A stretch of 37,714 nt of DNA. It comes from a virus (Duplodnaviria; Heunggongvirae; Uroviricota; Caudoviricetes). Below are positions 1 to 26,128 of this stretch, piece after piece (positions within the stretch are counted from its first letter, which is position 1; every line of letters starts with the position of its first letter). Both the position numbers and the translations under genes were made by a program. The stretch lies in the IMG/VR virus record IMGVR_UViG_2526164601_000037; one strand, written 5' to 3'. The notes beneath the pieces were generated by a model. It did not search any database, had not been told where the DNA came from, and saw only the letters and a list, made by a program, of their open reading frames with translations.

Positions 1-54
1 GGTATCCGTTCTGCTGAAGTGTCATGGCGTTGATTTTACGGTGACTCTTCGACA

Positions 55-83
55 GTGAAAAGAAAAAAGGCCGCAGAGCGGCC
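55..83 (-). terminator. Putative intrinsic terminator for the minus-strand operon ending at 193
   Basis: Inverted repeat GGCCGC-AGA-GCGGCC (69..83) followed on the minus strand by a T-rich run (complement of the A-run at 55..68). Confidence 0.4.
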
Positions 84-192
84 ATAATCACATTCAAAAA
101 TCAACAAGTTAAATAATTATCAATAACTTACAGACACACAAAAACACAGTCAACCACAACAAGTAACAGTGATGTGGTCACTTTGTGGATCA

Positions 193-735
193 TCAGCCAA
201 CAAATTTTGCAATGAAATACGTAGCCGCCGCTGTAAAAAGCGAAGTAAAGATGGCTATACACACAGGTATAATGATGCCACTCAACCGCCACTTCGTATT
301 ATCATCAACTTTGTCAAACCGCCGATTCATCTCATCCATAATCTTGTCAAAGCGTTTATCCATCGCTTCGGCAATCTCACCCTTCAGGCTGTTAATGTCT
401 GATTTGATCTGCTCTTTCAGGTGAGCTGTATCAGATTTAAGCTCACCTTTCAGATTCGCAATATCGCATTTAAGATCACCTTTCAGATTCGCAATGTCTG
501 CTTTGAGCTCACCTTTAACCTCACCAACATCGGCTTTGGTTGAGAGGTTTGTAGTGCGTTCAGCAAGCGTCGCAAGGTCGTTTCTTGTTAGCGATAAATC
601 ACCTTCGAGCCGCTCAATTCGCCTTTCAAGTTTATCTGACATTCCGCCTCCACTATCACCGCCTCCCCCACCGAAAGAGTTGCCAATGTCCTCACGAATA
701 AGGGTTATGCCATGCTCACTTTTAGCATATGCCAC
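193..735 (-). CDS. Coiled-coil protein with tandem 11-residue repeats and a C-terminal transmembrane anchor; function unknown
   Basis: ORF track; repeats DIANLKGDLKC / DIANLKGELKS / DTAHLKEQIKS / DINSLKGEIAE; Gly-rich N-terminus; hydrophobic C-terminal segment IIIPVCIAIFTSLFTAAATYFIAKF. True start may be the internal Met before SDKLERRIERLEG. Confidence 0.6.
   Translation of the reverse strand: MAYAKSEHGITLIREDIGNSFGGGGGDSGGGMSDKLERRIERLEGDLSLTRNDLATLAERTTNLSTKADVGEVKGELKADIANLKGDLKCDIANLKGELKSDTAHLKEQIKSDINSLKGEIAEAMDKRFDKIMDEMNRRFDKVDDNTKWRLSGIIIPVCIAIFTSLFTAAATYFIAKFVG
444..509. repeat. Tandem 33-bp coding repeats inside the coiled-coil gene
   Basis: Exact 19-bp direct repeat cacctttcagattcgcaat at 444..462 and 477..495, with degenerate neighbouring copies; period 33 bp keeps the reading frame. 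Confidence 0.6.
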
Positions 736-1149
736 TCAGATTCCCTCCCAAACTATATATCCTTTGTCTCTTGCCCAACAAACAACTGTGTGGGCTGTAT
801 ATGTGGATGTGAAGCCGCAATAAGAACATGACACTTCATACCGAGTATTGTAGATGTTAATGGGCTCGTTCTCCTTGTGTATGGGAGTGACATATTCCCA
901 ATCATTTGAATCATCATAATCATCAAGTTCAGGGTCTGTGCCGTGAACAACCGTATGTGGAATAAACAAATCTGGGCGCCCACACGAGAGACAAGAGGTT
1001 CTGGCTCCTCTATCTTTAAGGAATTGAATAAATAATTTGGGCGAAATCTGTTGCAGAACCTGCAAATGCCCACGTTCATTATCATTAAGAGACCTGTCTG
1101 CATATGGAAAATCATCAAATTTAAGAGGCTTCATATAAGGCATCTCCAA
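736..1149 (-). CDS. Hypothetical Cys-containing protein (CxxC pairs CLSC and CSYC); tightly coupled to the downstream coiled-coil gene
   Basis: ORF track; stop abuts the start of the 193..735 gene; the 5' end overlaps the 3' end of int, so the true start may be a downstream Met. Confidence 0.5.
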   Translation of the reverse strand: MEMPYMKPLKFDDFPYADRSLNDNERGHLQVLQQISPKLFIQFLKDRGARTSCLSCGRPDLFIPHTVVHGTDPELDDYDDSNDWEYVTPIHKENEPINIYNTRYEVSCSYCGFTSTYTAHTVVCWARDKGYIVWEGI

Positions 1150-2113
1150 GGGGATTAAATCTCACCGCATCCTGCAGGTAATCCGGCGCAAGATGGGCAT
1201 AAATCATCGTTGTCTGAATCTTTGCGTGCCCCAGAATTTTCTGGAGCGTCAGAATATTGCCGCCGTTCATCATGAAATGACTGGCGAAGGTGTGGCGCAG
1301 CGCATGAACAGCCTGGCCGTCAGGAACATCAGGTGCGACCGTTTTGATGACATCGCGAACCAATGGATAATCCAGCGTCGGAAACACCAGTTTCCCGCCC
1401 CGTTTTTTGATCTTTTCAAACAGGCTTTCAGAAATAGGAACGGTACGGTTTTTGCTGTTCTTCGTTTTTGAAAAAGTGATTCGACAATGAAGAACACGGC
1501 GCTGCTCCAGTGCCGCTACCTCGCCCCATCGCGCCCCGGTCGACAGAAGGATTTCGACAGCCAGCCGTTCATCGGGATTTTCAGCCAGTGCATCCAGCAA
1601 CTGAACACATTCAGACTTACTCAGATATCCCATTTCGCGCTCGTTAACCTTCATTCCTTTAAGGCCTTGAACGGGGTTATCGTTAAGAAAATGGCCGGAT
1701 GAGATGAGTGCGGTAAACATCGCGCTTAACGCCCCAATCTCTCGATTTATGGTGCTGGGCTGTATCCCCTGCTCTATCCTGGACACACGTAGCTCGGTGA
1801 GCATCGTTGTATTAAGTTTATGCACGCACGGGTCATCCATTGCCTCACTCAAGCGCAGCAATTTAAGGCGCGTGTTATGCCCTGACTTCATTAGCTGGCC
1901 GTGGTATTTCCACCACAAGTCAATAAGCACTGACAGCGGACGGCGATCAATGGAGTTTCCTTTCCACTCATTGTTATGCTGTTGCGCCAGCACCCACCGC
2001 TCATATAAAACTGCATCCGATTTCGTTTTAAATTTTTTGCGAATGCGTTTGCCTTTACGCCCCTCCGGGCGCATGTCAAGAAGATACCCTCCCGGAATTG
2101 ATTTTATGCTCAT
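1121..2113 (-). CDS. int: Tyrosine integrase, P2 Int-like
   Basis: N-terminus MSIKSIPGGYLLDMRPEGRKGKRIRKKF resembles the P2 Int N-terminus as recalled; catalytic-region motifs HALRHTFAS and MIYAHL. Start trimmed from the ORF-track 2263 to the ATG at 2113. Confidence 0.9.
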   Translation of the reverse strand: MSIKSIPGGYLLDMRPEGRKGKRIRKKFKTKSDAVLYERWVLAQQHNNEWKGNSIDRRPLSVLIDLWWKYHGQLMKSGHNTRLKLLRLSEAMDDPCVHKLNTTMLTELRVSRIEQGIQPSTINREIGALSAMFTALISSGHFLNDNPVQGLKGMKVNEREMGYLSKSECVQLLDALAENPDERLAVEILLSTGARWGEVAALEQRRVLHCRITFSKTKNSKNRTVPISESLFEKIKKRGGKLVFPTLDYPLVRDVIKTVAPDVPDGQAVHALRHTFASHFMMNGGNILTLQKILGHAKIQTTMIYAHLAPDYLQDAVRFNPLGDALYEAS

Positions 2114-2162: not shown

Positions 2163-2474
2163 TTAGCCGGGCTGTGTGCCAGTCTTGCGGGGTTTTTGAG
2201 AAGGCGATGTGCTTTTTGGCCCATCAGGGGAGAGAGACGGACTGATCTGCCCAGCAGCCTCATTTGTTTCGTTACTCATCAACCACGTGGTGTATTTTTT
2301 AAAGTTCGGATGCATTGTGATTTTCAGTAAAACCTCCGTCCCCACACCTCTAATACCAGTCTCATATTGCTTAACTGTACCAACCGCAATACCTATTGAA
2401 TCCGCGAACTTTGCCTGGCTAAGTCCCTCAGATTCTCGAATTGCTTTTAGCTTCTTTGATATCTCTATTGACAT
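2163..2474 (-). CDS. C: Immunity repressor, P2 C-like
   Basis: Helix-turn-helix segment LSQAKFADSIGIAVGTVKQYETG and C-terminal FKKYTTWLMSNE...GQISPSL resembling P2 C as recalled; start trimmed to the internal ATG at 2474; divergent from the early operon. Confidence 0.8.
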   Translation of the reverse strand: MSIEISKKLKAIRESEGLSQAKFADSIGIAVGTVKQYETGIRGVGTEVLLKITMHPNFKKYTTWLMSNETNEAAGQISPSLSPDGPKSTSPSQKPRKTGTQPG

Positions 2475-5769: not shown

Positions 5770-6159
5770 ATGATTGACGCTCATGACTTCACAAGATGGG
5801 TGCGCACACAGGACACCAGTCTGGCTCCCGTTCTTCAGGGATTATTTGATCTCTACATCCGTGGTCGTGACAACAGAGCACGCACCACAAAACCAGAGAA
5901 TGCAGACACCCTTTATTTCACAGTAGACGACTGCTACCGCGTGGACTTCACACCACACGGGCTGGCGTTGCACTGCCTGACACCACACGGCGAATCACTA
6001 CTGGCGTATTACGACTCCCCGGCCTCCGTATTTGCGGCAATGCTGGCGCATCGCACTGCTGGCGGGTGTGCCTCGCTGAGTGAATACACCGCTGAATTTA
6101 ACCGCCTTTCCACCCTCTTCTCGCAGGAGTGGCAGCGCGTGACGGGATACCAGCCATGA
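5770..6159 (+). CDS. Hypothetical protein immediately upstream of, and translationally coupled to, gene A
   Basis: ORF track, 129 aa; its stop overlaps the A start (ATGA at 6156..6159). Confidence 0.55.
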   Translation: MIDAHDFTRWVRTQDTSLAPVLQGLFDLYIRGRDNRARTTKPENADTLYFTVDDCYRVDFTPHGLALHCLTPHGESLLAYYDSPASVFAAMLAHRTAGGCASLSEYTAEFNRLSTLFSQEWQRVTGYQP

Positions 6160-8996
6160 GTGAGTTTGCATGGAGCTGGAATGAACCACGGCCAGCCATT
6201 GATCCAGCCAGATTTACGGAGCACAGGCAGGAAACTGAAACCGACCTGCAACGCGCCATCCGTTACTACCTTGAGGCGGACAAAAGGGCACAGAAAGAAC
6301 AGGAAGCGAAGGAAGAAGCCTTTTTCGCACAATCCGCCATGGGTAAAAAACTCATGGCATCCCTTGAGGAAGCCGGACAGCGTGAAAAGCTGGCACAGAG
6401 CATCATCAGTAAGCGCCGGGCAACAGAACAAGACCCGGTAGCCCGTGCCTTTGCCACACTGAAGGCGCTTCCCGTTTATCTGCGAGAACCTCTGAGCCGC
6501 CACCTCTCTTTCCTGCGCAAGAAGCAGGAAGCCGATCGTCAGAAAGGCAAAAAGAGCTGGCAGGCGGAACGCTATGCACGCGGAACCCTGCGCAAAATAT
6601 TCGAACGTCTGGACCGCACCGACAGCCGCTGGCTGACACCGGGTTATCGCTCCCTTGCCGGACGCGAACGCCTGGACGATTTACTTTACCTGCCGCAGCT
6701 CAACAAACACCAGATACAGACGCTGGCCACCATGACGGCGGCGATGTTCAGCAGCACCTTCGAAAAACTCTGCGATGGCTTTGGCGCGACTGATGGCGAA
6801 CTGACCATGGATGTAACGCTGAAGGCGTATCAGATGCTGGCCCGCATGGCGTTACACCTGCACGCCATGCCTCCGCATTATGACGCACTGACAACAGACA
6901 AAGACCGGAGGAACGAACCGGACACGGAGCTGCTGCCGGGCGCAATCCTTCGCCTGACCTGTGCGGAATGGTGGAAACGAAAACTGTGGCTGTTACGTTG
7001 CGAGTGGAGAGAAGAACAACTCCGCGCCGCCTGTCTGGTTTCCAGAAAAACATCGCCCTATCTGAGCCAGGACGCGTTAAGCGAGTTTCGCGCACAGCGC
7101 GAGAAAACACGCGATTTCCTGAAAAGTTTCATGCTGGAAAATGAAGACGGGTTCACGATTGATCTCGAGACGGTGTATTACGCGGGAGTAAGTAACCCGG
7201 TTCACCGTAAGGCAGAAATGATGGCCACCATGAAGGGGCTGGAACTTCTGGCCGAAGCCCGTGGCGACAAAGCGGTGTTTCTGACTGTCACCTGCCCGTC
7301 AAAATACCACGCCACAACAGAGAACGGTCATCCGAATCCCAAATGGAACGGGGCCACCATGCGCGACTCCAGTGATTACCTGGTTAACACGTTTTTTGCG
7401 GCGGTCCGCAAGAAACTGAACCGCGACGGCCTGCGCTGGTATGGCATCCGCACGGTGGAGCCTCACCATGACGGCACCGTGCACTGGCATATGATGGTCT
7501 TTGCACATCCGGAAGAAATCGACACCATTGTGTCCCACACCCGCGATATTGCCATTCAGGAAGATCGTCACGAGCTGGGTGATGATATTACCCCACGCTT
7601 TAAGGCGGAGTACGTCGACGGCTCAAAAGGCACACCGACCAGCTACATCGCCACCTACATCGGGAAAAACCTGGACAGCCGTGCCGTGGATGGCATCGAC
7701 CCGAAAACGGGCAAGCCACGCGTTGACCACGAAACAGGTAAATCAATGGCCGAGAGTGTGGAGCGCGCCATCGGCTGGGCGCGCCTTCACCGGGTCCGCC
7801 AGTTCCAGTTCTTTGGCATCCCCTCCCGTCAGGTGTGGCGTGAACTCCGCCGCCTTGCCAGCCAGATGGCACGCAACCCGGAAGGCCCGCAACGGCTGAA
7901 GGATGACGCAATGGATGCGGTACTCGCTGCCGCTGATGCCGGATGTTTTGCCACCTACATTGAAAAACAGGGTGGCGTACTTGTTCCGCGCAAGGACTAC
8001 CTGATTCGCACCGCCTACGACCTCGCAGATGAGCTGAACGATTACGGCGAACAGAGTGTACAGATTTACGGGATCTGGTCGCCATTCATCGGGGAATCCT
8101 CCCGTGTGTGCACGCATCCGGATAACTGGAAGCTGGTAAGACGTAAACCGGAAGTGGAAGACAGCGCCCGCGAAAATGGTTTTGACCTTCAGGGCGGCCC
8201 TGCCGCCCCTTGGACTCGTGGCAATAACTGTCCCCGTGTACAGGAAACGGACAACAACGGGACAGAACAGCCGGAAGAACGGCCAGCACCGTGGCCGCAG
8301 CTCCCTGACGGCGTTGAAGTGAACGAATGGATGCGCTCACTGAAACGACACGAACGCCGGGCGCTGATGCGTTCGCTTCGTGACAAACAGGCAAAAAACA
8401 GCAGCGATGAAATGCAGAGCTGGACACAGAGCCGCAAACAGCAGCGGCCTTTGCCTGATAACCACGAATTACTCGCTAAAGAATGGCGGGAGTCTGCTGA
8501 ATCTCTCGGCCTGCATATCGGTGAACAACAGATGCAGCACCTGTTACGGGGCGGCAGTCTGTACGTTGACGGCAGCATCATTGCACCGCAGGGATTTGAA
8601 ATTGTACGCAAACCGGATACCCGCCCGGACAGCCGAATCACGCAGCTCTGGCAGCGCCTGAGCCGTAATCACGGTGTAAGCAGCACGGAGATCCGCCATA
8701 ACCCGATCGCCAGCTATCTGGAACAGCTGGGGGCATCAGACCCTGAAGCCGCCACACGCCTGGCATCCACACTTCAGCAGGACCAGAACACCATGAAAAC
8801 ACCCGTTACCGTGCTTTCTGACATGCTGCGCGCCATCCGCGACGCAGAGCACGCACAGAGAATCAGTGAAACCACTGAACGTGCCCGCCGCAAAGCAGAC
8901 CTGCTGCGGGGTGGCCTGACCAGTGGAAACAAAAAACAGACAGAAACGGGACTCACGAATCCCGTAAATGAGCAAAAAACGCGCAGCGATATATGA
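6156..8996 (+). CDS. A: Rolling-circle replication initiator (endonuclease), P2 gpA family
   Basis: HUH-type motif HWHMMVF and tyrosine motif YIATYIGKN; position at the end of the early operon. Alternative GTG start at 6129. Confidence 0.9.
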   Translation: MSEFAWSWNEPRPAIDPARFTEHRQETETDLQRAIRYYLEADKRAQKEQEAKEEAFFAQSAMGKKLMASLEEAGQREKLAQSIISKRRATEQDPVARAFATLKALPVYLREPLSRHLSFLRKKQEADRQKGKKSWQAERYARGTLRKIFERLDRTDSRWLTPGYRSLAGRERLDDLLYLPQLNKHQIQTLATMTAAMFSSTFEKLCDGFGATDGELTMDVTLKAYQMLARMALHLHAMPPHYDALTTDKDRRNEPDTELLPGAILRLTCAEWWKRKLWLLRCEWREEQLRAACLVSRKTSPYLSQDALSEFRAQREKTRDFLKSFMLENEDGFTIDLETVYYAGVSNPVHRKAEMMATMKGLELLAEARGDKAVFLTVTCPSKYHATTENGHPNPKWNGATMRDSSDYLVNTFFAAVRKKLNRDGLRWYGIRTVEPHHDGTVHWHMMVFAHPEEIDTIVSHTRDIAIQEDRHELGDDITPRFKAEYVDGSKGTPTSYIATYIGKNLDSRAVDGIDPKTGKPRVDHETGKSMAESVERAIGWARLHRVRQFQFFGIPSRQVWRELRRLASQMARNPEGPQRLKDDAMDAVLAAADAGCFATYIEKQGGVLVPRKDYLIRTAYDLADELNDYGEQSVQIYGIWSPFIGESSRVCTHPDNWKLVRRKPEVEDSARENGFDLQGGPAAPWTRGNNCPRVQETDNNGTEQPEERPAPWPQLPDGVEVNEWMRSLKRHERRALMRSLRDKQAKNSSDEMQSWTQSRKQQRPLPDNHELLAKEWRESAESLGLHIGEQQMQHLLRGGSLYVDGSIIAPQGFEIVRKPDTRPDSRITQLWQRLSRNHGVSSTEIRHNPIASYLEQLGASDPEAATRLASTLQQDQNTMKTPVTVLSDMLRAIRDAEHAQRISETTERARRKADLLRGGLTSGNKKQTETGLTNPVNEQKTRSDI

Positions 8997-9041
8997 AGCG
9001 CGCACAAAACAGGCAAAAACGGGATTTCAGAATCCCGTAAA
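8944..9041. repeat. Two 25-bp dyad-symmetric repeats upstream of parM; candidate ParR-binding centromere or operator
   Basis: aaacgggactcacgaatcccgtaaa (8944..8968) and aaacgggatttcagaatcccgtaaa (9017..9041), each with an ACGGGA...TCCCGT inverted repeat; the first lies within the 3' end of A. Confidence 0.4.
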
Positions 9042-9072
9042 CGATTAATTAATCAACATAAGGAAAAGCGAC

Positions 9073-10032
9073 ATGAAAATTTGTATCGACGACGGCTCCA
9101 CCAACATCAAGCTGGCATGGACTGAGAACAGCGAACGCCGCAACGCCATCAGCCCGAACAGCTTCAAGTCGGAATGGTCTGCGCCGTTCGGTGGCTCGCA
9201 GCCTGCGAACTACATGCTTGATGGCGTGCGCTATGGTTTTGATCCGGTCAGCGATCGCTTTGTCCAGACGACCGACACGCAATACCAGTACAGCGATGTG
9301 AATGTAATCGCCATTCACCACGCGCTGGTCAAATCAGGCATCACACCACAGGAGGTGGATGTGGTTGTCACCCTGCCACTGAGCGAGTATTTCGACACAA
9401 ACGCACAGCCGGACATGGCCAACATCAACCGCAAAAAAGCGAACGTTATGCGCCCGGTGGAGTACCAGAACGGTGAGGCATTCACTATCCGTAACGTGCG
9501 GGTTATGCCTGAATCCATTCCGGCTGGCTTTAAAGCACTGGCTGACATGAGTCCGTTTGAATCCCTGCTGATTGTGGATTTAGGCGGAACCACGCTGGAT
9601 GTGGCAAAGGTTCAGGGACAACTGGCAGGTATCAGCCAGGTGTTTTGCGATCCACACGTAGGCGTTTCCCTGATGGCCGATGCCGTACTGTCGGTGATGG
9701 CCACTAACGGTATGCGTACCAGTCACCACATCGCCAATACCATTATCGAACATCGCCATGATGAAGCCTGGCTGCGCCAGCACATCCACAATGACGCGCA
9801 TTACAACAGCCTGATGGCGGTTATTCGTGAAAAGGAAGAAACACTGAAACAACGCGTGATCCGCGCGCTGGCGGGTTTTTCGGGTTACGGGCGGGTGATG
9901 GTTGTCGGTGGAGGGGCGGAGATTGTGGCACCCGCTATCCGCGAAGCCTGCGGAGTTAATGCGACTTTCATCGCGGACGGGGTGCCACAGTTTGCTCTGG
10001 TTAATGGGCTGTACGCAATGGACAAGGAGTAA
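9073..10032 (+). CDS. parM: Actin-like segregation ATPase, ParM/StbA family
   Basis: N-terminus MKICIDDGSTNIKLAW and motifs SPNSF, YSDVNVIAIHHAL, VMPESIPAG, LIVDLGGTTLD, VMVVGGGAE match plasmid R1 ParM as recalled; RBS AAGGAAAAG. Confidence 0.9.
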   Translation: MKICIDDGSTNIKLAWTENSERRNAISPNSFKSEWSAPFGGSQPANYMLDGVRYGFDPVSDRFVQTTDTQYQYSDVNVIAIHHALVKSGITPQEVDVVVTLPLSEYFDTNAQPDMANINRKKANVMRPVEYQNGEAFTIRNVRVMPESIPAGFKALADMSPFESLLIVDLGGTTLDVAKVQGQLAGISQVFCDPHVGVSLMADAVLSVMATNGMRTSHHIANTIIEHRHDEAWLRQHIHNDAHYNSLMAVIREKEETLKQRVIRALAGFSGYGRVMVVGGGAEIVAPAIREACGVNATFIADGVPQFALVNGLYAMDKE

Positions 10033-10036
10033 ACCA

Positions 10037-10348
10037 ATGACGACACCAACCAGACGGATAAGTTTCTATCTGAAGCCCGCCGCCGTCAAGAACGAAGGCG
10101 AAGCATGCGCCTGGCTGGACAGCCTTACACCAGAAGCCCGCAAAAGCGGCCAACGCGTGGCTTTTCTGGCCGGGCTGGCACTTCTGAAAATGAATCCGGC
10201 AGAGGCTTACCGACTGGCTGCATGGGCTGACGATGAGGCGTTATCGGTGACACAAACCAGGACAGAACGCCCCGTGTCACAGCCAGTACCAACCGCACAG
10301 ATAACCAGTCAGATGGCAGGGAATATCCGGGCATTATTTCCTGAATGA
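10037..10348 (+). CDS. parR: ParR-like centromere-binding adaptor
   Basis: Immediately downstream of parM with strong RBS AAGGAG; ISFYLKP, AGLALL and C-terminal RALFPE resemble R1 ParR as recalled. Start trimmed to the ATG at 10037. Confidence 0.7.
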   Translation: MTTPTRRISFYLKPAAVKNEGEACAWLDSLTPEARKSGQRVAFLAGLALLKMNPAEAYRLAAWADDEALSVTQTRTERPVSQPVPTAQITSQMAGNIRALFPE

Positions 10349-10408
10349 CGAATTTGACGGCTTTTAATTTTATCGGGGTGCACTGTCGCCCCGCACGAGG
10401 AAAACACG

Positions 10409-10933
10409 ATGAAAAAATACGAATACATGCTAATGAAAGAAGCACTGCGGGCTGGTCTGGCTCCCTGTCCTGTATCCGTAGAAGCTGTTGTTGGGAACAC
10501 GATTTTCCGAACGCTGCGAAATCGCGTATCCGTGAAGATGATTCACCAACCACCCAAATCTACCAGCATGATCTATCTGCCGCTGCCCGAGGCTATCAAA
10601 CTTATGCGTTCGCTGAAATTTGCGATTTGGATGCAGACACAACTCAACAAAGCGGTGCAAAACACCTTCGTTAAGAAACTGATGCCGGAGCTTGCTGCCA
10701 GATGTGCAAAATGTACCAGACCCGCACTTCAATTTGATCTGTCATTGATTCAACAAGCTACGGAGGCAGAACTGTACCGCCTGTCACCTCTCCATGATGC
10801 TCACACGGAAGCCTCAGAAATGTTCCGGCTCATGTTTCAATTTAATTTTGCCGTTCGACGCACACGCATTCAGGTCAATCGCATGATGCAGGCGCAGGAA
10901 GAGCTGACGCAACACAAAGGAGGCAACCAGTGA
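10409..10933 (+). CDS. Hypothetical protein in the A-to-Q cargo region
   Basis: ORF track, 174 aa, RBS GAGG eight nt upstream; no similarity recognised. Confidence 0.55.
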   Translation: MKKYEYMLMKEALRAGLAPCPVSVEAVVGNTIFRTLRNRVSVKMIHQPPKSTSMIYLPLPEAIKLMRSLKFAIWMQTQLNKAVQNTFVKKLMPELAARCAKCTRPALQFDLSLIQQATEAELYRLSPLHDAHTEASEMFRLMFQFNFAVRRTRIQVNRMMQAQEELTQHKGGNQ

Positions 10934-11105
10934 GCAAAATTGACTATCAGGCATTACGCGAGGCGGCACAAAACTATCAATCGACGCTGGCGTGGTATGA
11001 GGTTGACGCGGGCTAGTTTTGCCGCAAGGATAATTCGTTTCAGCGGGTGATTTTTTGCGCTATCATTCCGGCAGTGGTTCACGATTATTGGCAGGAAAGG
11101 CAATT

Positions 11106-11699
11106 ATGAGCAGTAAAAAAAATAAAATAACATCTATGGCCGCAGCGCTGGCGGTGGCTCTCGCCCCTGTTCCTGCCAGTAGCATTGTGCATCATGACTT
11201 ATCAATCTCCCGGCACAGTACGTCTACGCTATCCCTCCAGGACGTAAAGGATTCTGTGGCATACCTTCCTATTGATGAGGCCACCAGTTATATGCTTAAC
11301 CTGGCTGATAGGATGAAGACACACAGGGCAAACCTTCGCATCGAATGGGAAGAAAAGCAGATCCCTATTATTCTGAAAAATCAGAAAAAAGAGACTCAGG
11401 AAGGGTTTGAAAGCCTTTTCCGTCATATTGCGGTATGTGCAAGTTTTGTCGAGGCTGCAAGGGTTGCGCTGAAAAGCGTACCTGAAAGTAACGCGGAACT
11501 GAGAAAAGAGATTGTCGCTTTTGCTCGTTCCGCTGCGACGCTCCGCTATACGATTGAAGATATTTTATCCTTCATTGAAAGCACGCATGTGCCGAAGAAA
11601 ACTTCAGATGCTGATCTGGGTGTTACCGCCGATCAGGTTCGCGCACTTATCCGCAGTGAACATAAAAAGCTGGGCCTTAAAGATCCAACGTTCCATTAA
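11106..11699 (+). CDS. Hypothetical protein upstream of the YafO-like toxin gene; candidate antitoxin or partner, not YafN-like
   Basis: ORF 11055..11699 trimmed to the ATG at 11106 (RBS AGGAAAGG); hydrophobic N-terminal stretch AAALAVALAPVPA; 9-nt gap to the downstream toxin gene. Confidence 0.55.
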   Translation: MSSKKNKITSMAAALAVALAPVPASSIVHHDLSISRHSTSTLSLQDVKDSVAYLPIDEATSYMLNLADRMKTHRANLRIEWEEKQIPIILKNQKKETQEGFESLFRHIAVCASFVEAARVALKSVPESNAELRKEIVAFARSAATLRYTIEDILSFIESTHVPKKTSDADLGVTADQVRALIRSEHKKLGLKDPTFH

Positions 11700-11708
11700 G
11701 GCAGGGCC

Positions 11709-12089
11709 ATGATTAAAGTCTCTGTCCACAATGACATAGAACTCCCCGCAGTTGCTCGTAAATATGCACATGCTTTGCAGTCATGGAAAAACGGCGGATC
11801 TTTACCCTCAGTCTTTGGCAACGAAGGGCAGTGGGAAGATAGCGGGCGTCTTCGTGATTCTTTTGTTTTTAAGATTCACATTCGTTTACCTGATGAACAG
11901 CCGTGGCCTGCAAAGCTACCTGCCGCCTCGCGTAAATCAAACAGTTATCTTGTTTACTCCCGCCATTTCTTATATCCAGATAAGTATCAGCTAATCAGCA
12001 TTATGACACCCAATGCGCATGAGTTAGCCCGTACATCCTACATGGCAGAAATTGAGCGCAGAGCAGAAGAGTTCCAGTCTTCTTTTTGA
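11709..12089 (+). CDS. YafO-family toxin-like protein (ribosome-dependent mRNA interferase family)
   Basis: Segments SWKNGGSLPSVFG, FKIHIRLP, SYLVYSRH, QLISIMTPNAHELAR and MAEIERRAEEF align with E. coli YafO as recalled. Confidence 0.7.
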   Translation: MIKVSVHNDIELPAVARKYAHALQSWKNGGSLPSVFGNEGQWEDSGRLRDSFVFKIHIRLPDEQPWPAKLPAASRKSNSYLVYSRHFLYPDKYQLISIMTPNAHELARTSYMAEIERRAEEFQSSF

Positions 12090-12130
12090 GTTTTGCGACG
12101 ACTATCTATCAATCCCTTACTAATCTGAAA

Positions 12131-12160
12131 AGCTGCCTTTTGAAGGCGGCTTTTCTTTCT
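12131..12160 (+). terminator. Candidate intrinsic terminator after the YafO-like operon
   Basis: Imperfect hairpin AGCTGCC-TTTTGAA-GGCGGCT followed by TTTCTTTCTT. Confidence 0.45.
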
Positions 12161-12180
12161 TCCTGGCCTTCTTTCTCTGT

Positions 12181-12210
12181 TGCACAATAGTGCACAAATT
12201 TGCACAATTT
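12181..12210. repeat. Three helically phased 10-bp direct repeats TGCACAA(N3)
   Basis: tgcacaatag / tgcacaaatt / tgcacaattt at 12181, 12191, 12201; a fourth TGCACAA at 12273..12279; adjacent direct repeat GGATCCGT at 12251..12258 and 12262..12269. Confidence 0.5.
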
Positions 12211-12631
12211 TTTTGAACGACTTTTTACCCTTCCGGCCCGCATGGCGGCTGGATCCGTCAAGGATCCGTGCGTGCACAAAAAAACGCGCTTTTTCTGCGC
12301 GCAGGTGACGGGGGAACAGCCCGCGTTTCAGGGGGTAAATAGCATTCCCTGAACGATGTCGCAGCGACACAACAGAATGGCTGTATTTCTCACACTGAGC
12401 GTGAAAAAGGCGTGAGGGCTTTTGATTTGATGGGGTGACAGATAAGGCCGTCAAAATCGCACTGAGGCGGCAAGAACATGCAGTCAACGCGGTGGGATTG
12501 CGTAAGAGCCTGACCGTCGATGATGGCGATAAGCTGGAAGACGTCGTGAAATTATCTGATTGATACAGGAGCTGGAGAGTCGGGGCATAAATTTTTTATG
12601 CCCCGGCGAAGCAGCAGACAAGCGAAGCGCG

Positions 12632-13678
12632 TCAGGATGTGGGCTGGGTGTCCAGCAGTGCGTAAGGGTTAAAGCGGATCACCTCTTCGCCAAGCCAGTC
12701 ATTGATATGCTTCATGGCCTCCATGACGGGCATCAGCTCGTTAATTGCGTAAACCCGCGCTGCCTTCTCCACATCACCAAACGCACTTTTTTCGCCCGGC
12801 ATCGCCCCCATCAGTTGCGGCGGAACGCGGTGCGCAGCCAGCACATCATCACGGGATGCCGCCTTAACATTCATGAACTCATCCTTTGCGGTGATCTGCT
12901 GGAACGGCAAAATTTGCACACCTTCTTTGCCCCCGTTGGGCGCGTGAATGAGCACGTTTTTAAATGCACCACCACCACGCGCACCCTGTAGCGTTTCCTT
13001 CAGGGAGTCCATGCTTTCGCGGTTTACCTGCGCTGCACCGATGTAGATGATGCACCCGGCGTGGGATCCATTGTCGTAGTACAGTTTTCTGAACATGTCC
13101 GCCGAATGAGACAGGCTGGCCGAGAGTAATGCGCCAAGATATTCCGGCATGCCGTAGATTTCCTGGTTAATATCCGGATTCATCAGGTGGCACACTTTGC
13201 CAGGGCGAAACTGGAACGCGTCCTTGCCATCCTGCACATACCACCATGATTCAAGATCGCTTCCGCGTCGCATGTATTTCGCCAGGGCGTGCCGTAATTT
13301 AAGCGGTTCGCCGAGCATATTGCTTCGAAGCTCAAGGAATGCGTTACCGAACACAAACCAGTCCAGCGCCAGCGCCGAGAAATCCTGCCGGGAAAGCAAC
13401 GGGTGCGGGATGTAGCAACCGAGTAATACATTGCGCTTAAAGTAAAGCGCAGACTGATGCCAGGACGTTTGCCGGGCAGCTCTTGCCAGACCGTACCAGT
13501 CCACCGGGGTTTCATACCACCGCCCGTTATCAGCACAGTACATATTATCCAGCAGGTCATGCCCGGTCAGGCGATAAGGACCATCAAATGTGAATGCACT
13601 GAGCGATGATTCTTTCCTGAGCGCATCAGCGAGATCAATGCGTGAACTCATGCGCACTTTTTTATTTTTTCTGCTCAT
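12632..13678 (-). CDS. Q: Portal protein, P2 gpQ-like
   Basis: ORF track, 348 aa; size and position next to terminase P on the minus strand match the P2 Q-P arrangement. Confidence 0.85.
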   Translation of the reverse strand: MSRKNKKVRMSSRIDLADALRKESSLSAFTFDGPYRLTGHDLLDNMYCADNGRWYETPVDWYGLARAARQTSWHQSALYFKRNVLLGCYIPHPLLSRQDFSALALDWFVFGNAFLELRSNMLGEPLKLRHALAKYMRRGSDLESWWYVQDGKDAFQFRPGKVCHLMNPDINQEIYGMPEYLGALLSASLSHSADMFRKLYYDNGSHAGCIIYIGAAQVNRESMDSLKETLQGARGGGAFKNVLIHAPNGGKEGVQILPFQQITAKDEFMNVKAASRDDVLAAHRVPPQLMGAMPGEKSAFGDVEKAARVYAINELMPVMEAMKHINDWLGEEVIRFNPYALLDTQPTS

Positions 13679-15429
13679 CAGAACTCCATAACCGTGAAAC
13701 GCTCGTTTTCTCCTTCGCCGCCAATCGGTTCGTTAATGACAGCAAGCATGGTTGCCCACGCAAGGTCGCCGTGGCTGATCCCCCTCGCGCGGTCCGTTTC
13801 GTAAGTGATAAAGCCGCCCGGTGTTTTCACCTTACGCACGGCGTTAAAGGCCGCGACCAGCTCGCGTTCGGCGCGATCGTATTCCCACCGCCCGGCACGC
13901 ATTATTTGCAGCATTTTCAGTACCAGCGACCGTTTTGATGACAGCGTGAAGGTGTACGGAATAGCAGCAGGGAAAAACCGTTTCACTATCTGATAAACAG
14001 CCTCCCCGTTCCCACCCGTCACATCAATGCCGATGTGTTCCACGTTGTAGCGATACGTGAACTCTTCAATGACTCTGGCCTGTTCTTCAAACTCCAGCCC
14101 CTGAACGCGTCGCGTCTCCACCGTTCGAAAACGGCCACCAGGAACAGCCGGAGGAACCACCACGGACACAGCGCCGCTGTCGCCGTTGCCACTGCTGCCG
14201 TTTGCGTCATACCCAATCCATACCGGACGATTCCCCATCGGGCGGGGAGCAAAAGGTTTCCAGTCTTTCCAGTCGTCGTATCCGTCAACACCGCAGCCAA
14301 TCAGGATATTCAGGTTAAATGCCGATTCCCCTTCGCGGACAAACTCACACATATAGAGATTGCGGAACTCGTCTTCGGTGTTTTCATCACGAATTTCATC
14401 AATATCGGTGTGTTTCCAGCCGTGATTAACCACATCTTCCAGCGTGACAATTTGCCGCCACGTCCGGTCGGGGCAGATAAGCCCGTTATGCAGCGTTTTC
14501 CAGTCCACAGAAAAACGCTGGCGTTTATGCGCGGCCTTTTTCTCGTTCCAGCGGTCGCCGTTCCAGTAGACGTATGCCTCGTGCGTTTCGGTTGATGGCG
14601 TGGAGAAGTAGGTGCGTCGCAGCCCGCTGAGGGTTGCCATAGCGCCAGCCACCTTGCGCAGTTCAGCAAAGCGACTGACCCAGAAAAATTCATCAAAATA
14701 AAAATTGCCTGTGTAGGACTGTGCCGTCGCAGCAGAAGTGCCGAGAAAATGCAGCTCTGCGCCGTTGGAGAGGATGATTTTATCGCCCCCTTTCAGCTCC
14801 ACATCAACTTCAGATGCAGCCTTCTGAATAATGCTTTTAAACTGGAACGCCTGACGACGCGACGCAGACAAAAAAATCTGGTTACGCTGGTAAGGTTGCG
14901 CCACATCGTCACGCAGCGCCATCAGCAGTGCTTCCTGTGCAAAATACCAGGTCGCCCCAATCTGTCGGGATTTCAGGATCATCCTGTTACGTATCCCGGC
15001 TTCCCTGCAAAGGGTCAGGGAGTCAAACCAGCCCCGCTGATGCCACTCCAGCCTGCTGATGATTTTTTCCCGCAGTGCGGCAATCTGTTCCGGCGTGAAA
15101 TGATTTTTAAGCTTTTTCGCCCGGCCTTTCTTTCCTGTGGCCGTCGCATCCGGCTGGCCATCATGCAGTTTTTTAAGCTGCCGGGTCAGCAGGTCTATTT
15201 CCTTAAAGTCACCGCCTGTTTTATTCTGTTTTTCAGTAAGCTGGATGAGGCGCGCATCGATGGACTGCGTGACACGCTGCACGGGTGGCGTTTCATCCCA
15301 CTGGTCGCGTTTTTTCCACGCATAAATCGTGTTCGGGTTTATTCCCATCAGACGTGATATTTCAGCGGGCGGATAACCCTGCCAGTAAAGTTGTCGCGCA
15401 CGCTGGCGCACAAAAGCGTCCTGAATCAT
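13678..15429 (-). CDS. P: Terminase large (ATPase) subunit, P2 gpP-like
   Basis: ORF track, 583 aa; divergent from the O-N-M-L capsid operon as in P2. Confidence 0.85.
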   Translation of the reverse strand: MIQDAFVRQRARQLYWQGYPPAEISRLMGINPNTIYAWKKRDQWDETPPVQRVTQSIDARLIQLTEKQNKTGGDFKEIDLLTRQLKKLHDGQPDATATGKKGRAKKLKNHFTPEQIAALREKIISRLEWHQRGWFDSLTLCREAGIRNRMILKSRQIGATWYFAQEALLMALRDDVAQPYQRNQIFLSASRRQAFQFKSIIQKAASEVDVELKGGDKIILSNGAELHFLGTSAATAQSYTGNFYFDEFFWVSRFAELRKVAGAMATLSGLRRTYFSTPSTETHEAYVYWNGDRWNEKKAAHKRQRFSVDWKTLHNGLICPDRTWRQIVTLEDVVNHGWKHTDIDEIRDENTEDEFRNLYMCEFVREGESAFNLNILIGCGVDGYDDWKDWKPFAPRPMGNRPVWIGYDANGSSGNGDSGAVSVVVPPAVPGGRFRTVETRRVQGLEFEEQARVIEEFTYRYNVEHIGIDVTGGNGEAVYQIVKRFFPAAIPYTFTLSSKRSLVLKMLQIMRAGRWEYDRAERELVAAFNAVRKVKTPGGFITYETDRARGISHGDLAWATMLAVINEPIGGEGENERFTVMEF

Positions 15430-23916: not shown

Positions 23917-25526
23917 CAGTGAAATACTACGCCATTCTGACTAATCAGGGCGCGGCACGACTGGCTAACGCGACGATGCTCGGCAGTAAGCTGAATCTGA
24001 CGCAAATGGCCGTTGGTGATGCAAATGGTGTGTTACCAACACCAGACCCTGCACAAACAAAACTGATTAACCAGAAACGCATTGCACCGCTGAATCTTCT
24101 GAGTATTGACCCGAACAACCAGAACCAGATTATCGCGGAGCAAATCATCCCTGAGAACGAGGGCGGATTCTGGATCCGTGAGATTGGTCTTTATGATGAT
24201 GAAGGCGTACTCATTGCGGTGGCAAACTGCCCGGAAACGTACAAACCGCAGTTGCAGGAAGGCAGTGGACGCACCCAGACTATCCGCATGATTCTGGTTG
24301 TCACGAACACCGAAGCCATCACGCTGAAAATCGACCCGTCTGTGGTTCTGGCAACCCGCAAATATGTGGATGACAAAATCTCAGAGCACGAGCAGTCACG
24401 ACGTCACCCGGACGCCTCGCTGACCGCAAAAGGTTTTACTCAGTTAAGCAGTGCAATTAACAGTGAATCAGAAACACTGGCCGCAACACCGAAAGCGGTT
24501 AAGACTGCATATGACCTGGCTAACGGGAAATATACCGCCAAGAACGCCACCACAACACAAAAAGGGATTGTTCAGCTCAGTAGCGCCACAAACAGCACGT
24601 CTGAAACGCTGGCAGCGACACCAAAAGCTGTTAAGGCGGTAATGGATGAAACGAGCAAGAAAGCCCCATTAAACAGCCCGGCACTGACCGGAACGCCAAC
24701 AACACCAACAGCGCCACAAGGGACTAATAGTACCCAGATCGCAAGCACGGCTTTCGTTATGGCCGCGATTGCCGCACTTGTAGATTCGTCACCTGATGCA
24801 CTGAACACGCTGAACGAACTGGCTGCGGCGCTGGGCGATGACCCGAATTTTGCGACCACCATGACTAACGCGCTTGCGGGTAAGCAACCGAAGGATGCCA
24901 CCCTGACGGCGCTGGCGGAGCTTGCTACAGCAGCAGATAAACTCCCATATTTTACAGGGGCAGATCGTGCCGCGTTAACCGCGTTGACAAGTGTTGGACG
25001 TGCCATTCTTAGTAAGCCCAGCACACAGGGAGTTCTTGATTATCTTGGTTTGGGAGAAGGCTCTGCATTGCCTGTTGGTGTACCGATTCCGTGGCCTTCT
25101 GCTACTCCGCCGACAGGCTGGCTGAAATGCAATGGTGCTGCCTTTGATAAAGTGAAATATCCCAACCTTGCCAAAGCATACCCGTCAGGGAAACTGCTGG
25201 ATTTACGCGGTGAGTTTATTCGTGGATGGGATGACGGGCGTGGTATTGATGCAGGACGTGCTTTATTGAGCATTCAGGCTGGGATGCTGGAGAAGCACCG
25301 CCATATTGTTGTTGCCAACGATGGTTATGATTCAGGTGAAGAATGGGAGTTGGCTACAATTTTTCAGAATACATACACACAAGGTCGGGGGCTTGACGCC
25401 GTTTATACAGGGGGAACCCTTATTCCGGCTCCGAGGTTGCATTCACGAGGAAGTATTGGTAACACGGGCGGGAGCGAAACACGACCGCGCAATATTGCAT
25501 TTAACTTTATTGTGAGGGCTGCATAA
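23913..25526 (+). CDS. H: Tail fiber protein, P2 gpH-like
   Basis: ORF track, 537 aa; internal tandem repeat SETLAATPKAVK typical of tail fibers; position after I. Confidence 0.85.
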   Translation: MTVKYYAILTNQGAARLANATMLGSKLNLTQMAVGDANGVLPTPDPAQTKLINQKRIAPLNLLSIDPNNQNQIIAEQIIPENEGGFWIREIGLYDDEGVLIAVANCPETYKPQLQEGSGRTQTIRMILVVTNTEAITLKIDPSVVLATRKYVDDKISEHEQSRRHPDASLTAKGFTQLSSAINSESETLAATPKAVKTAYDLANGKYTAKNATTTQKGIVQLSSATNSTSETLAATPKAVKAVMDETSKKAPLNSPALTGTPTTPTAPQGTNSTQIASTAFVMAAIAALVDSSPDALNTLNELAAALGDDPNFATTMTNALAGKQPKDATLTALAELATAADKLPYFTGADRAALTALTSVGRAILSKPSTQGVLDYLGLGEGSALPVGVPIPWPSATPPTGWLKCNGAAFDKVKYPNLAKAYPSGKLLDLRGEFIRGWDDGRGIDAGRALLSIQAGMLEKHRHIVVANDGYDSGEEWELATIFQNTYTQGRGLDAVYTGGTLIPAPRLHSRGSIGNTGGSETRPRNIAFNFIVRAA

Positions 25527-26128
25527 TGAATCACGCGGTATTAAATAATGAACTTATTGCCGTGCAGGAAGGAAACATTATCGTTTACAACTATGACAGT
25601 GAGACGCGGGAATATATTTCTGCATCAACTGAATATCTTGCTGTGGGTGTCGGTATTCCGGCATATTCCTGTTTAGACGCTCCTGGCACACATAAGGCTG
25701 GTTATACAATTTGCCGTTCTGTGGATTTAAAATCATGGGAATATGTGTCAGACCATCGTGGTGAAATTGTCTATAGCACCGAAACAGGGGAATCAAAAGA
25801 AATTAAAACTCCGGGTGATTACCCTGAAAATACAACCACTATCGCCCCGTTAACGCCATACGATAAATGGGATGGTGAGAAATGGGTGACAGATACTGAG
25901 GAGCAACATCACGTCGCAGTAGAGACGGCAGAAACACAGCGCCAGTCGCTGATTGATGCCGCAATGGCTTCCATTAGTCTGATTCAACTGAAATTACAGG
26001 CCGGGCGGAAGCTGATGCAGGCAGAGACCTCCCGACTTAACACTGTGCTGGATTACATTGACGCGGTGACGGCAACAGATACCAGCACCGCGCCGGATGT
26101 CATCTGGCCTGAACTGCCGGAGGCGTAG
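25526..26128 (+). CDS. G: Tail fiber assembly chaperone, P2 gpG-like
   Basis: ORF track, 200 aa; C-terminal Tfa-type motif DTSTAPDVIWPELP. Confidence 0.8.
   Translation: MNHAVLNNELIAVQEGNIIVYNYDSETREYISASTEYLAVGVGIPAYSCLDAPGTHKAGYTICRSVDLKSWEYVSDHRGEIVYSTETGESKEIKTPGDYPENTTTIAPLTPYDKWDGEKWVTDTEEQHHVAVETAETQRQSLIDAAMASISLIQLKLQAGRKLMQAETSRLNTVLDYIDAVTATDTSTAPDVIWPELPEA

What the first reader, a model, noticed from the sequence alone, without database searches (positions are those of the whole stretch)
193..1149. Two-gene module downstream of int: Cys-rich protein plus repeat-containing tail-anchored coiled-coil protein
These coupled genes overlap the 3' end of int and end at a terminator, so they look co-transcribed with the integrase region. 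The second protein has tandem 11-residue repeats, a Gly-rich N-terminus and a C-terminal membrane anchor, resembling small phage-associated membrane effectors. The function is unrecognised and the location is a typical cargo position next to att.
Basis: partly seen in the sequence, partly recalled or inferred. Interest (0 to 1): 0.5.

Follow-up and report, generated by a model that had tools for sequence, protein, structure and literature searches.

The report
Prophage zinc-ribbon and membrane-stalk gene pair
Between the integrase and the attachment site of a P2-like E. coli prophage sits a conserved gene pair of untested function: a small zinc-binding protein and a membrane-anchored coiled-coil stalk, related to DUF1640 and Borrelia Bdr proteins, whose length varies in 11-residue steps; it is most likely used in phage-against-phage competition.

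Summary
On the minus strand, int (1121-2113) overlaps by 14 nt a 132-aa four-cysteine protein, A (736-1134). A's stop codon abuts the GTG start of a 180-aa protein, B (193-735). The next minus-strand terminator is the ihfA hairpin inside the 25-bp att core (59-83), so both genes are phage cargo and not host genes.

A belongs to a small zinc-ribbon family (PHROG 4293, 79 clusters) with no Pfam or fold match. B has a disordered N-peptide, a Gly linker, a helix, an LSTKAD beta-layer motif, eight hendecads and a tail anchor. This is the neck-stalk-anchor of DUF1640/CCDC90 and Borrelia Bdr proteins with a different head, and it scores below Pfam threshold.

A-B adjacency holds in 11 of 12 divergent contexts, nearly all in the repressor/integrase operon of P2/186-like prophages. 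Stalk length is quantised in 11-residue steps (50-94 residues among E. coli alleles). Gene A and B's N-peptide are exchanged together, independently of the stalk.

No function is published and no PADLOC model matches. Best reading (0.45): a lysogen-expressed, membrane-tethered exclusion or defence module. It is a new variant of a known kind and moderately interesting.

The parts
59..83 (.). att core (attL copy), 25 bp AAAGAAAAAAGGCCGCAGAGCGGCC; left boundary of the prophage
   Evidence: All 5426 E. coli genomes match window 1-83 only unless they are lysogenic. The empty site was read, and the identical 25 bp were found at attR in DEC5B.
69..83 (-). Intrinsic terminator hairpin (the ihfA terminator) followed by the T-run at 59-68; first minus-strand terminator after gene B
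   Evidence: 6 GC pairs, loop 3, TTTTTTCTTT. It is retained in the reconstructed attP because it lies inside the core.
84..192 (.). Phage arm of att between the core and gene B (non-coding)
   Evidence: It is absent from empty sites. It is shared at >=80% coverage by 304 of 5426 genomes.
193..735 (-). Gene B: 180-aa tail-anchored coiled-coil protein (DUF1640/CCDC90-like, Bdr-like stalk); stop at 193-195, GTG start at 733-735
   Evidence: PF07798 27.9 bits, below GA 33.5; phrog_9415, 2.3e-15.
673..735 (-). B residues 1-21: variable N-terminal peptide (MAYAKSEHGITLIREDIGNSF), predicted disordered; its sequence tracks the allele of gene A
   Evidence: pLDDT <50; identity tracks A, not the B body.
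643..672 (-). B residues 22-31: Gly-rich linker GGGGGDSGGG; recombination junction of the cassette
   Evidence: homology with the O157 allele ends at 663.
547..642 (-). B residues 32-63: the most conserved helix (MSDKLERRIERLEGDLSLTRNDLATLAERTTN)
   Evidence: invariant E37, R39, L43, E44; H32-63.
529..546 (-). B residues 64-69: LSTKAD, which matches the beta-layer neck consensus [aliphatic]-A-T-K-[polar]-[DE] described for DUF1640
   Evidence: helix break at 64-66; the motif definition is in PMC4786415.
283..546 (-). B residues 64-151: eight hendecads (stalk); the DNA tandem repeat of 33 nt is most regular at 376-538
   Evidence: length quantised in units of 11.
199..303 (-). B residues 145-179: C-terminal transmembrane anchor (KW...P.V...AKFVG)
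   Evidence: hydropathy; H145-179; W149, P157, V158, A176 invariant.
736..1134 (-). Gene A: 132-aa zinc-ribbon protein (PHROG 4293); stop at 736-738, ATG at 1132-1134; overlaps the int stop by 14 nt
   Evidence: (2.5e-30).
982..993 (-). A residues 48-51: first CxxC knuckle
   Evidence: C48 and C51 are invariant in 60 sequences at 20-66% identity to the window protein.
817..828 (-). A residues 103-106: second CxxC knuckle
   Evidence: C103 and C106 are invariant, and W120 is invariant downstream.
664..1143 (-). [not shown]
   Evidence: This cassette type is present in 14 of 5426 complete E. coli genomes.
1121..2113 (-). int, P2-type tyrosine integrase (330 aa from MSIKS...)
   Evidence: (Int_N 2.2e-28, Phage_integrase 4.1e-20).
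2163..2474 (-). C-type HTH repressor, the first gene of the same-strand run C-int-A-B
   Evidence: (HTH_3 1.5e-09).

Best explanation
The region encodes a conserved two-gene accessory module of the lysogeny (repressor-integrase) operon of a P2-like prophage.

SHOWN:
- Gene A encodes a soluble ~130-aa protein with two invariant CxxC knuckles (a zinc ribbon) and an N-terminal helical pair.
- Gene B, whose start abuts A's stop, encodes a protein with no signal peptide. It consists of a variable disordered N-peptide, a poly-Gly linker, a conserved helix, an LSTKAD beta-layer motif, a stalk of hendecads and a single C-terminal transmembrane helix.
- The pair sits inside the att boundaries. It runs in one same-strand gene string with C and int, up to the terminator held in the att core.
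- The A-B pairing is kept across very divergent members.
- Stalk length varies in 11-residue quanta.
- Gene A and the N-peptide of B are exchanged together, independently of the stalk and anchor.

INFERRED:
- B is tail-anchored in the inner membrane, with its stalk (probably trimeric, as in DUF1640 proteins) in the cytoplasm.
- A docks on B's N-peptide and serves as a detachable 'head', held at a set distance from the membrane.
- The module is made in the lysogen from the repressor promoter.
- Like other cargo in P2 variable slots, it acts against superinfecting phages or other mobile elements, either by exclusion at the membrane or by abortive infection, with A as the recognition part and B as the membrane tether or effector.
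For: - Anatomy.
- Inside att.
- A family and zinc site: PHROG 4293 at 2.5e-30; 79 clusters at 50% identity with four invariant Cys plus W120; generic Zn-ribbon Pfam hits in some members; AF2 pLDDT 74.
- B architecture: PF07798 match to profile positions 68-168; beta-layer motif as defined for DUF1640; Bdr repeats aligned at 35% identity.
- Pairing: 17/17 IMG/VR loci and 11 of 12 divergent contexts. The order is C-int-A-B or repressor-A-B-int in P2/186-like prophages.
- Reciprocal recombinants: L045 vs L046 have A 94%, N-peptide 89% and body 48% identity. L024 vs L045 have A 31%, N-peptide 27% and body 93%. Window vs O157 have A 28%, N-peptide 10% and body 90%. Breakpoints fall at 663/664 and 1143/1144.
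- Stalk quantisation: the neck-to-anchor distance is 39, 50, 61, 72, 83 or 94 residues in 35 of 45 homologues.
- Cargo-slot behaviour. The int-att gap is a minor P2 defence hotspot (PMC13586616).
- Rare and patchy: A cassette in 14 and B body in 39 of 5426 complete genomes.
- No minus-strand sigma-70 consensus between Pc and B.
Against: - No experiment exists and no homologue has a known function.
- No PADLOC model matches beyond coiled-coil noise, and no literature on the pair was found.
- Binding of A to the N-peptide is not tested. Co-inheritance could follow from physical linkage alone, with the conserved Gly-linker/helix DNA acting as the crossover point.
- B-like proteins occur without A (Liberibacter phage SC1, Borrelia Bdr, an Aliivibrio plasmid), and A occurs once without B (L036).
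- Bdr proteins are regarded as lysogenic-conversion proteins of unknown function, not as defence proteins.
- Transcription from Pc through int is inferred from P2 biology and was not measured here.
Confidence: 0.45

Rival explanations
1. Lysogenic-conversion membrane protein with a host-directed role. Like Borrelia Bdr or mitochondrial MCUR1/CCDC90B, B would scaffold or regulate a host inner-membrane complex, with A as its regulatory partner. There would be no direct anti-phage activity.
For: - B shares the neck-stalk-anchor with DUF1640/CCDC90 and the repeat and anchor with Bdr.
- Bdr proteins are inner-membrane associated prophage (cp32) proteins classed as lysogenic-conversion genes of unknown function.
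- The TM helix carries invariant residues (W149, P157, V158, A176), more than a mere anchor would need.
Against: - No target is known.
- The DUF1640 head, which binds MCU in MCUR1 (from my own recollection of Adlakha et al. 2019, not checked with the tools), is absent: Pfam profile positions 1-67 are not matched.
- The cassette-like allele swapping, rarity and position in a variable slot are more typical of conflict genes.
Confidence: 0.25
2. Addiction or toxin-antitoxin-like pair. B would be a membrane-damaging toxin and A, encoded upstream and translationally coupled, its neutraliser, stabilising the prophage.
For: - The pair is two small abutting genes with the soluble partner first.
- There is weak similarity of B's C-terminal part to haemolysin XhlA (E 0.0077; phrog_1193).
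- The same prophage carries a Hok-type toxin at its other end.
Against: - B-type proteins exist alone in other phages and plasmids, so they are not intrinsically lethal.
- A has no DNA-binding antitoxin features.
- A long quantised stalk has no role in a simple toxin.
Confidence: 0.1
3. Phage life-cycle function: a lysis accessory (XhlA-like) or a modulator of integration/excision acting with Int.
For: - Gene A overlaps int.
- There are sub-threshold XhlA and Rz-like spanin hits.
Against: - The module is absent from most P2-like phages, including other prophages at the same att site, so it is not essential.
- It lies in the lysogeny operon and not in the late lysis cassette.
- Its order relative to int is not fixed: A-B-int in L030, L037 and L042.
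- All XhlA scores are far below threshold (16.8 vs 34.7 bits).
Confidence: 0.07
4. The ORFs are not genes (chance ORFs or host DNA). RefSeq/PGAP omits gene A in most genomes.
For: In 12 of 14 complete genomes nothing is annotated over gene A.
Against: - A has 79 homologous clusters with four invariant Cys, a PHROG family and a confident fold.
- Both genes are absent from empty att sites.
Confidence: 0.01

Closest known systems
DUF1640 / CCDC90-like family (Pfam PF07798; human MCUR1 and CCDC90B, prokaryotic homologues; the 'head-neck-stalk-anchor' proteins of the Lupas laboratory)
   Same: - A beta-layer motif ([aliphatic]-A/S-T-K-x-D) at the start of the stalk.
- A coiled-coil stalk and a single C-terminal membrane anchor.
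- The Pfam match covers profile positions 68-168 of 175.
- RefSeq names B-type proteins DUF1640/CCDC90 family.
   Different: - The score of 27.9 bits is below the gathering score of 33.5.
- The family's head region (profile positions 1-67) is not matched. B instead has a short variable peptide, a poly-Gly linker and one helix.
- A partner zinc-ribbon gene is always upstream.
- Family members without hendecad repeats do not hit PF07798 at all.
Borrelia Bdr (Borrelia direct repeat) proteins of cp32 prophages and linear plasmids
   Same: - Prophage-borne.
- The same ELK-[AS]-D-I-x-x-[LV]-K hendecad repeat, followed by K-W and a C-terminal hydrophobic anchor.
- Repeat number differs between otherwise near-identical alleles (PMC3303823).
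- Inner-membrane associated, function unknown (PMC10016077).
   Different: - The Bdr N-terminal domain (NCBIfam NF040499) is absent from B.
- No A-type zinc-ribbon partner was seen next to the one bdr gene inspected.
- The host phylum is different.
Lambda RexA/RexB (functional analogy only)
   Same: A two-gene accessory unit co-transcribed with the prophage repressor, comprising a soluble component and an inner-membrane component. RexAB excludes other phages (my own knowledge of lambda biology).
   Different: There is no sequence or fold relationship. RexB is a polytopic membrane protein, not a tail-anchored stalk. An exclusion phenotype has not been shown for A-B.
XhlA (PF10779), the membrane protein of the PBSX/SPbeta lysis cassettes
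   Same: A small protein with an N-terminal coiled coil and a C-terminal TM helix. There is a weak match to B residues 109-165.
   Different: The score is 16.8 bits against a threshold of 34.7. XhlA sits with the holin and endolysin genes, whereas B sits in the lysogeny operon.
PHROG 4293 (A) and PHROG 9415 (B)
   Same: Both window proteins match these phage protein families (2.5e-30 and 2.3e-15).
   Different: Both families are listed as 'unknown function', and PHROGs does not record that they form a pair.

Membership tests
DUF1640 / CCDC90-like (PF07798) | Pfam HMM score at or above the gathering score (33.5 bits) | tested here: not met
   The score is 27.9 bits (E 2.5e-06). Close relatives score 26.9-33.1, and only the distant Kuenenia protein P0061 passes at 41 bits.
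DUF1640 / CCDC90-like (PF07798) | Beta-layer neck motif [aliphatic]-A-T-K-[polar]-[DE] at the start of the stalk | tested here: met
   L-S-T-K-A-D is at residues 64-69. T66, K67 and D69 are invariant or nearly so. There is a helix break at 64-66 in the model. The motif is as defined in PMC4786415.
DUF1640 / CCDC90-like (PF07798) | Single C-terminal transmembrane anchor after the stalk | tested here: met
   Hydropathy peaks at 2.19 over residues 153-171. AF2 gives a helix at 145-179.
DUF1640 / CCDC90-like (PF07798) | Conserved N-terminal head domain of the family | tested here: not met
   Profile positions 1-67 are not aligned. Residues 1-31 are predicted disordered.
DUF1640 / CCDC90-like (PF07798) | Trimeric coiled-coil stalk | not testable with these tools
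   Only monomer prediction was available. The hendecad periodicity is compatible with a trimer but does not prove it.
Borrelia Bdr family | Bdr N-terminal domain (NCBIfam NF040499 Bdr_N_group1) | tested here: not met
   The model hits a true Bdr at 80.4 bits. It is absent from B's NCBIfam hits at E<=1.
Borrelia Bdr family | Central 11-residue K-[x]-D-I type repeats of variable copy number plus a C-terminal hydrophobic anchor | tested here: met
   BLASTP gives 35% identity over 101 residues, with E 2e-14 for the single comparison, and tblastn gives 2e-6. Copy number is 4-8 among E. coli alleles.
Zinc ribbon (protein A) | Two CxxC knuckles that together make a four-cysteine site, each on a beta hairpin | tested here: met
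   C48, C51, C103 and C106 are invariant in 60 sequences. Strands flank both knuckles. Some family members hit generic Zn-ribbon Pfam models.
Zinc ribbon (protein A) | Significant structural match to a solved zinc-ribbon protein | tested here: inconclusive
   [not shown]
Known anti-phage defence systems (PADLOC-DB v2) | Match to a model of a described or candidate defence protein | tested here: not met
   A gives no hit. B gives only weak coiled-coil matches (ZorA tail 2.6e-05, LmuB).
XhlA (PF10779) | Pfam score at or above 34.7 bits and a location in a lysis cassette | tested here: not met
   The score is 16.8 bits. The gene lies next to int and att, not with the lysis genes.

The most novel reading that the evidence does not exclude
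A-B is a 'split head-neck-stalk-anchor' device. A tail-anchored, probably trimeric, hendecad stalk acts as a molecular ruler. It holds an exchangeable zinc-ribbon head, docked on the stalk's N-terminal peptide, at quantised distances (about 7-14 nm) below the inner membrane. There the head would intercept an incoming phage's DNA or ejection proteins, or trigger membrane damage. This would be a new class of prophage-encoded exclusion or abortive-infection system. It would also give the first function to bacterial DUF1640/Bdr-type proteins.
Probability: 0.15. Interest if true: 0.75.

Novelty: new variant of a known kind. Interest (0 to 1): 0.5.

Why it matters
- It adds a defined, testable candidate to the cargo that temperate phages carry for conflicts with other phages. 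The slot (int-att) has only recently been recognised as a minor hotspot.
- It shows that gene A is systematically missed by standard annotation, being unannotated in 12 of 14 complete genomes.
- It links three orphan groups through a shared neck-stalk-anchor with hendecad repeats of variable number: enterobacterial prophage 'DUF1640' proteins, Borrelia Bdr proteins (function unknown for 25 years) and the MCUR1/CCDC90B family.
- E. coli genetics on this module could therefore address what such stalks do and why their length is tuned in 11-residue steps.

Tried and rejected
- Host-gene explanation: rejected, because empty sites lack everything to the right of position 83.
- Known defence system: PADLOC gives nothing meaningful.
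- PDB sequence and profile searches for A and B gave only sub-significant hits: apolipoprotein, beta-layer GCN4 fusions and 6h9l.
- Scans of genome contigs failed: no confirmed hit or an alignment too divergent to use.
- The sixth copy of the 33-nt repeat, at 26214-26244, lies in a tail-fibre-assembly gene fragment and is a chance match.
- A in plasmids: no match.
- Literature and supplement searches for DUF1640/CCDC90 in phage-defence papers found nothing on this pair.
- The older Bdr papers are not held in the library.
- The protein upstream of the Aliivibrio DUF1640 gene is not an A homologue; it has no CxxC pairs.
Full report
**Where the window comes from**

The window is an E. coli chromosomal segment holding a P2-like prophage. 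Its first 83 bases match all 5426 complete E. coli genomes, but most genomes match nothing beyond position 83. In the unoccupied site of BW25113, position 83 is joined directly to the ihfA 3' flank, and btuC starts just left of window position 1.

In strain DEC5B, which carries a near-identical prophage (98.6% over 1-2299), the other junction repeats 25 bp, AAAGAAAAAAGGCCGCAGAGCGGCC. That repeat is the att core, at window 59-83. Everything from 84 rightward is phage DNA.

**Anatomy (minus strand)**

- The C-type HTH repressor (2163-2474) and a P2-type integrase (1121-2113) are followed by gene A.
- Gene A most likely starts at ATG 1132-1134, with a GGAG 9 nt upstream. This gives 132 aa, as in its 132-aa homologues. 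It overlaps the int stop codon by 14 nt.
- A's TGA (736-738) is followed directly by the GTG (733-735) of gene B (193-735, 180 aa).
- No sigma-70 consensus was found on the minus strand between the repressor and B.
- The first minus-strand terminator is the GC hairpin at 69-83 with a T-run. This is the ihfA terminator and lies inside the att core, so it is also present in the reconstructed attP.

**The start of B**

RefSeq/PGAP annotates a 149-aa form starting at M32. Three observations favour the 180-aa form.
- The frame is open from A's stop in 17 of 17 complete IMG/VR loci, always with TGA-GTG adjacency. In divergent relatives the called start of B overlaps or abuts A's end, or follows it within about 11 nt.
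- The Gly run and a G-[IV]-T-x-I-R motif are conserved as protein.
- The K. pneumoniae homologue P0050 has no Met at the short-form position.

**Protein B**

- Hydropathy shows one hydrophobic segment, at the C-terminus.
- The AF2 model (mean pLDDT 67) has residues 1-31 disordered, a helix at 32-63, a break at 64-66, a helix at 67-140 and a helix at 145-179.
- The break coincides with L-S-T-K-A-D. This matches the beta-layer consensus [aliphatic]-A-T-K-[polar]-[DE] reported at the start of the stalk in DUF1640 membrane proteins (PMC4786415).
- From that motif an 11-residue register runs for eight units to the anchor.
- At the DNA level five 33-nt units lie at 376-538, and TRF reports a period of 33 with score 94.
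- Pfam PF07798 (CCDC90-like/DUF1640) matches profile positions 68-168 at 27.9 bits, below the 33.5-bit threshold. The family's head is not matched. Relatives without hendecad repeats do not hit PF07798.
- B therefore shares the neck, stalk and anchor of that family but has a different N-terminal end.

**Relation to Bdr and other stalk proteins**

A tblastn search of plasmids returned the Borrelia Bdr proteins. They have the same ELK-S-D-I-x-x-V-K hendecads, then K-W and a hydrophobic tail. Bdr proteins are cp32-prophage proteins associated with the inner membrane, of unknown function. Their repeat number differs between near-identical alleles (PMC10016077; PMC3303823).

The Bdr N-terminal domain (NF040499) is absent from B. 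Liberibacter phage SC1 gp26 and an Aliivibrio plasmid protein have the same kind of stalk.

**Stalk length is quantised**

I measured the distance from the T of the T-K-x-D motif to the W before the anchor in 45 homologues.
- It is 39, 50, 61, 72, 83 or 94 residues in 35 of them. All of these are 6 modulo 11.
- The other ten fall in three further classes modulo 11: 10 (six homologues), 2 (three) and 8 (one). Classes 2 and 10 are offset from 6 by four residues.
- E. coli alleles that are otherwise more than 80% identical carry 4 to 8 units (50-94 residues). Total protein lengths consequently run 112/123/134/145/156 and 148/159/170/181/192.
- Unrelated hendecad sequences have expanded in other lineages: EMAETREGLRL x5 in L035 and ELKAQITGDMK x3 in L037.

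The phase between neck and anchor is thus preserved while the length changes.

**Protein A**

- It has no Pfam family but matches PHROG 4293 at 2.5e-30, a family of unknown function.
- A profile search of 1.84 billion representative proteins found 79 clusters of 70-180 aa.
- In an alignment of 60 members at 20-66% identity to the window protein, only C48, C51, C103, C106 and W120 are invariant besides the start Met.
- AF2 (pLDDT 74, pTM 0.69) gives two N-terminal helices, hairpins carrying the two CxxC knuckles and a C-terminal helix.
- RefSeq leaves gene A unannotated in 12 of the 14 complete genomes that carry this allele.

**A and B form a pair**

A-family genes are followed at once by a B-type gene (variable peptide, Gly run, LE-[KR]-R-[VI]-E-x-LE helix, usually a T-K-x-D motif, a stalk of variable length, and a TM helix) in these loci:
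- the window;
- a Klebsiella element;
- 17 IMG/VR prophage ends;
- L024, L028, L030, L031, L035, L037, L040 and L042.

In L033 the B gene is cut by an IS element. Only L036 has A alone, beside a type I-F CRISPR-Cas locus.

The order is C-int-A-B or repressor-A-B-int, in P2- or 186-like prophages. Exceptions are L031 (an island without int at the btuC-ihfA site), L033 (a mobile-element region), L036 (A alone, as above) and L040 (a non-prophage context).

**Modular exchange**

Protein identities in eight loci show both reciprocal classes.

| Comparison | A | N-peptide of B | B body |
|---|---|---|---|
| L045 vs L046 | 94% | 89% | 48% |
| L024 vs L045 | 31% | 27% | 93% |
| Window vs O157 | 28% | 10% | 90% |

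The N-peptide thus follows A and not the rest of its own protein. This fits A binding that peptide. Physical linkage, with crossovers in the conserved linker/helix DNA, would give the same pattern, so the interaction remains an inference.

**Context as cargo**

- About 304 genomes share the phage arm 84-200, but only 39 carry this B body and 14 this A cassette.
- Another prophage at the same site has an unrelated 131-aa gene in the slot.
- G+C of the module is 0.43-0.46, against 0.50 for int.
- A 2026 survey of P2-like prophages reports the int-att gap as a minor defence hotspot holding 3% of systems (PMC13586616).
- PADLOC models do not match.
- I found no paper on the pair.

**Interpretation**

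What is shown is a conserved, translationally coupled pair, laid out as part of the lysogeny operon and inside att. It encodes a zinc-ribbon protein and a tail-anchored DUF1640/Bdr-type stalk of quantised length, with an exchangeable [A + N-peptide] unit.

What is inferred:
- a cytoplasmic orientation of the stalk (no signal peptide, tail anchor, a cysteine-zinc partner);
- docking of A on the N-peptide;
- expression in the lysogen from Pc (by analogy with P2, where C and int are co-transcribed; my own knowledge);
- a role in excluding or aborting other phages (by analogy with other P2 cargo slots and with the lambda cI-rexA-rexB arrangement; my own knowledge).

I put 0.45 on that full reading. 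The rivals are a host-directed lysogenic-conversion role like that suspected for Bdr (0.25), an addiction pair (0.10), a lysis or integration accessory (0.07) and non-genes (0.01).

**Verdict**

This is a new variant of a known kind: prophage accessory cargo built on a known stalk architecture, with a new obligatory partner and a new head arrangement. Interest is moderate (0.5). The function is untested. However, the module is cleanly delimited and genetically tractable, and it touches the unexplained Bdr/DUF1640 proteins.

Noticed in passing
window 33473-36912 (minus strand): A four-gene run lies between gpD and ogr. It comprises a 237-aa protein with a sub-threshold PG_binding_1 match, two radical SAM proteins (370 and 462 aa; PF04055 at 4.5e-12 and 3.6e-10; only weak pVip/viperin PADLOC hits) and a 104-aa protein. 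It looks like a second cargo island at the other prophage end.
   Followed up: partly
window 37124-37384 and 37575-37714: An ogr/delta-type zinc-finger gene and a Hok/Gef-type toxin ORF lie near attR. The window ends exactly at the hok stop. attR itself lies about 280 bp further on in strain DEC5B.
   Followed up: partly
window 736-1134: RefSeq/PGAP leaves gene A unannotated in 12 of the 14 complete E. coli genomes that carry this allele. It also calls B from an internal Met (149 aa).
   Followed up: yes
window 32076-33308: The late-control gene D appears split into two ORFs (32076-32873 and 32943-33308). In DEC5B the corresponding region is annotated as a 264-aa VgrG/Pvc8-family protein next to a short partial pseudogene. 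This may be a frameshift or a defective prophage.
   Followed up: no
window 26100-26267 (minus strand): A 55-aa ORF resembles the C-terminal end of a tail-fibre assembly protein, next to the full 200-aa copy at 25526-26128. It holds the chance sixth copy of the 33-nt repeat.
   Followed up: partly
window 8930-9044: Two 42-nt direct repeats (81% identical, 73 nt apart), each with an internal GGGA...TCCC hairpin, straddle the stop of the 955-aa ORF (6129-8996), presumably the replication gene. They lie at the edge of the classical P2 tin/old cargo slot.
   Followed up: no
window 9073-12500: Several ORFs (319, 174, 214 and 126 aa) occupy the slot between the 955-aa ORF (6129-8996, presumably the replication gene) and the ORFs I take to be portal and terminase (12632-15429). 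This is the main P2 defence hotspot. They were not examined.
   Followed up: no
L044 2790-3185 (E. coli OkiPb01675): A related prophage at the same btuC-ihfA att site carries a single unrelated 131-aa hypothetical protein (WP_000416306.1, no Pfam hit) in the int-att slot instead of A-B.
   Followed up: partly
L031 3001-3728: An A-B pair lies between mdtJI and ihfA with no integrase nearby. It appears to be a remnant or stand-alone island at the same chromosomal site in another enterobacterium.
   Followed up: no
L028/L029 2111-2947: In one lineage a 278-aa protein with N-terminal hydrophobic segments sits between int and the A-B pair. It is a possible third component.
   Followed up: no
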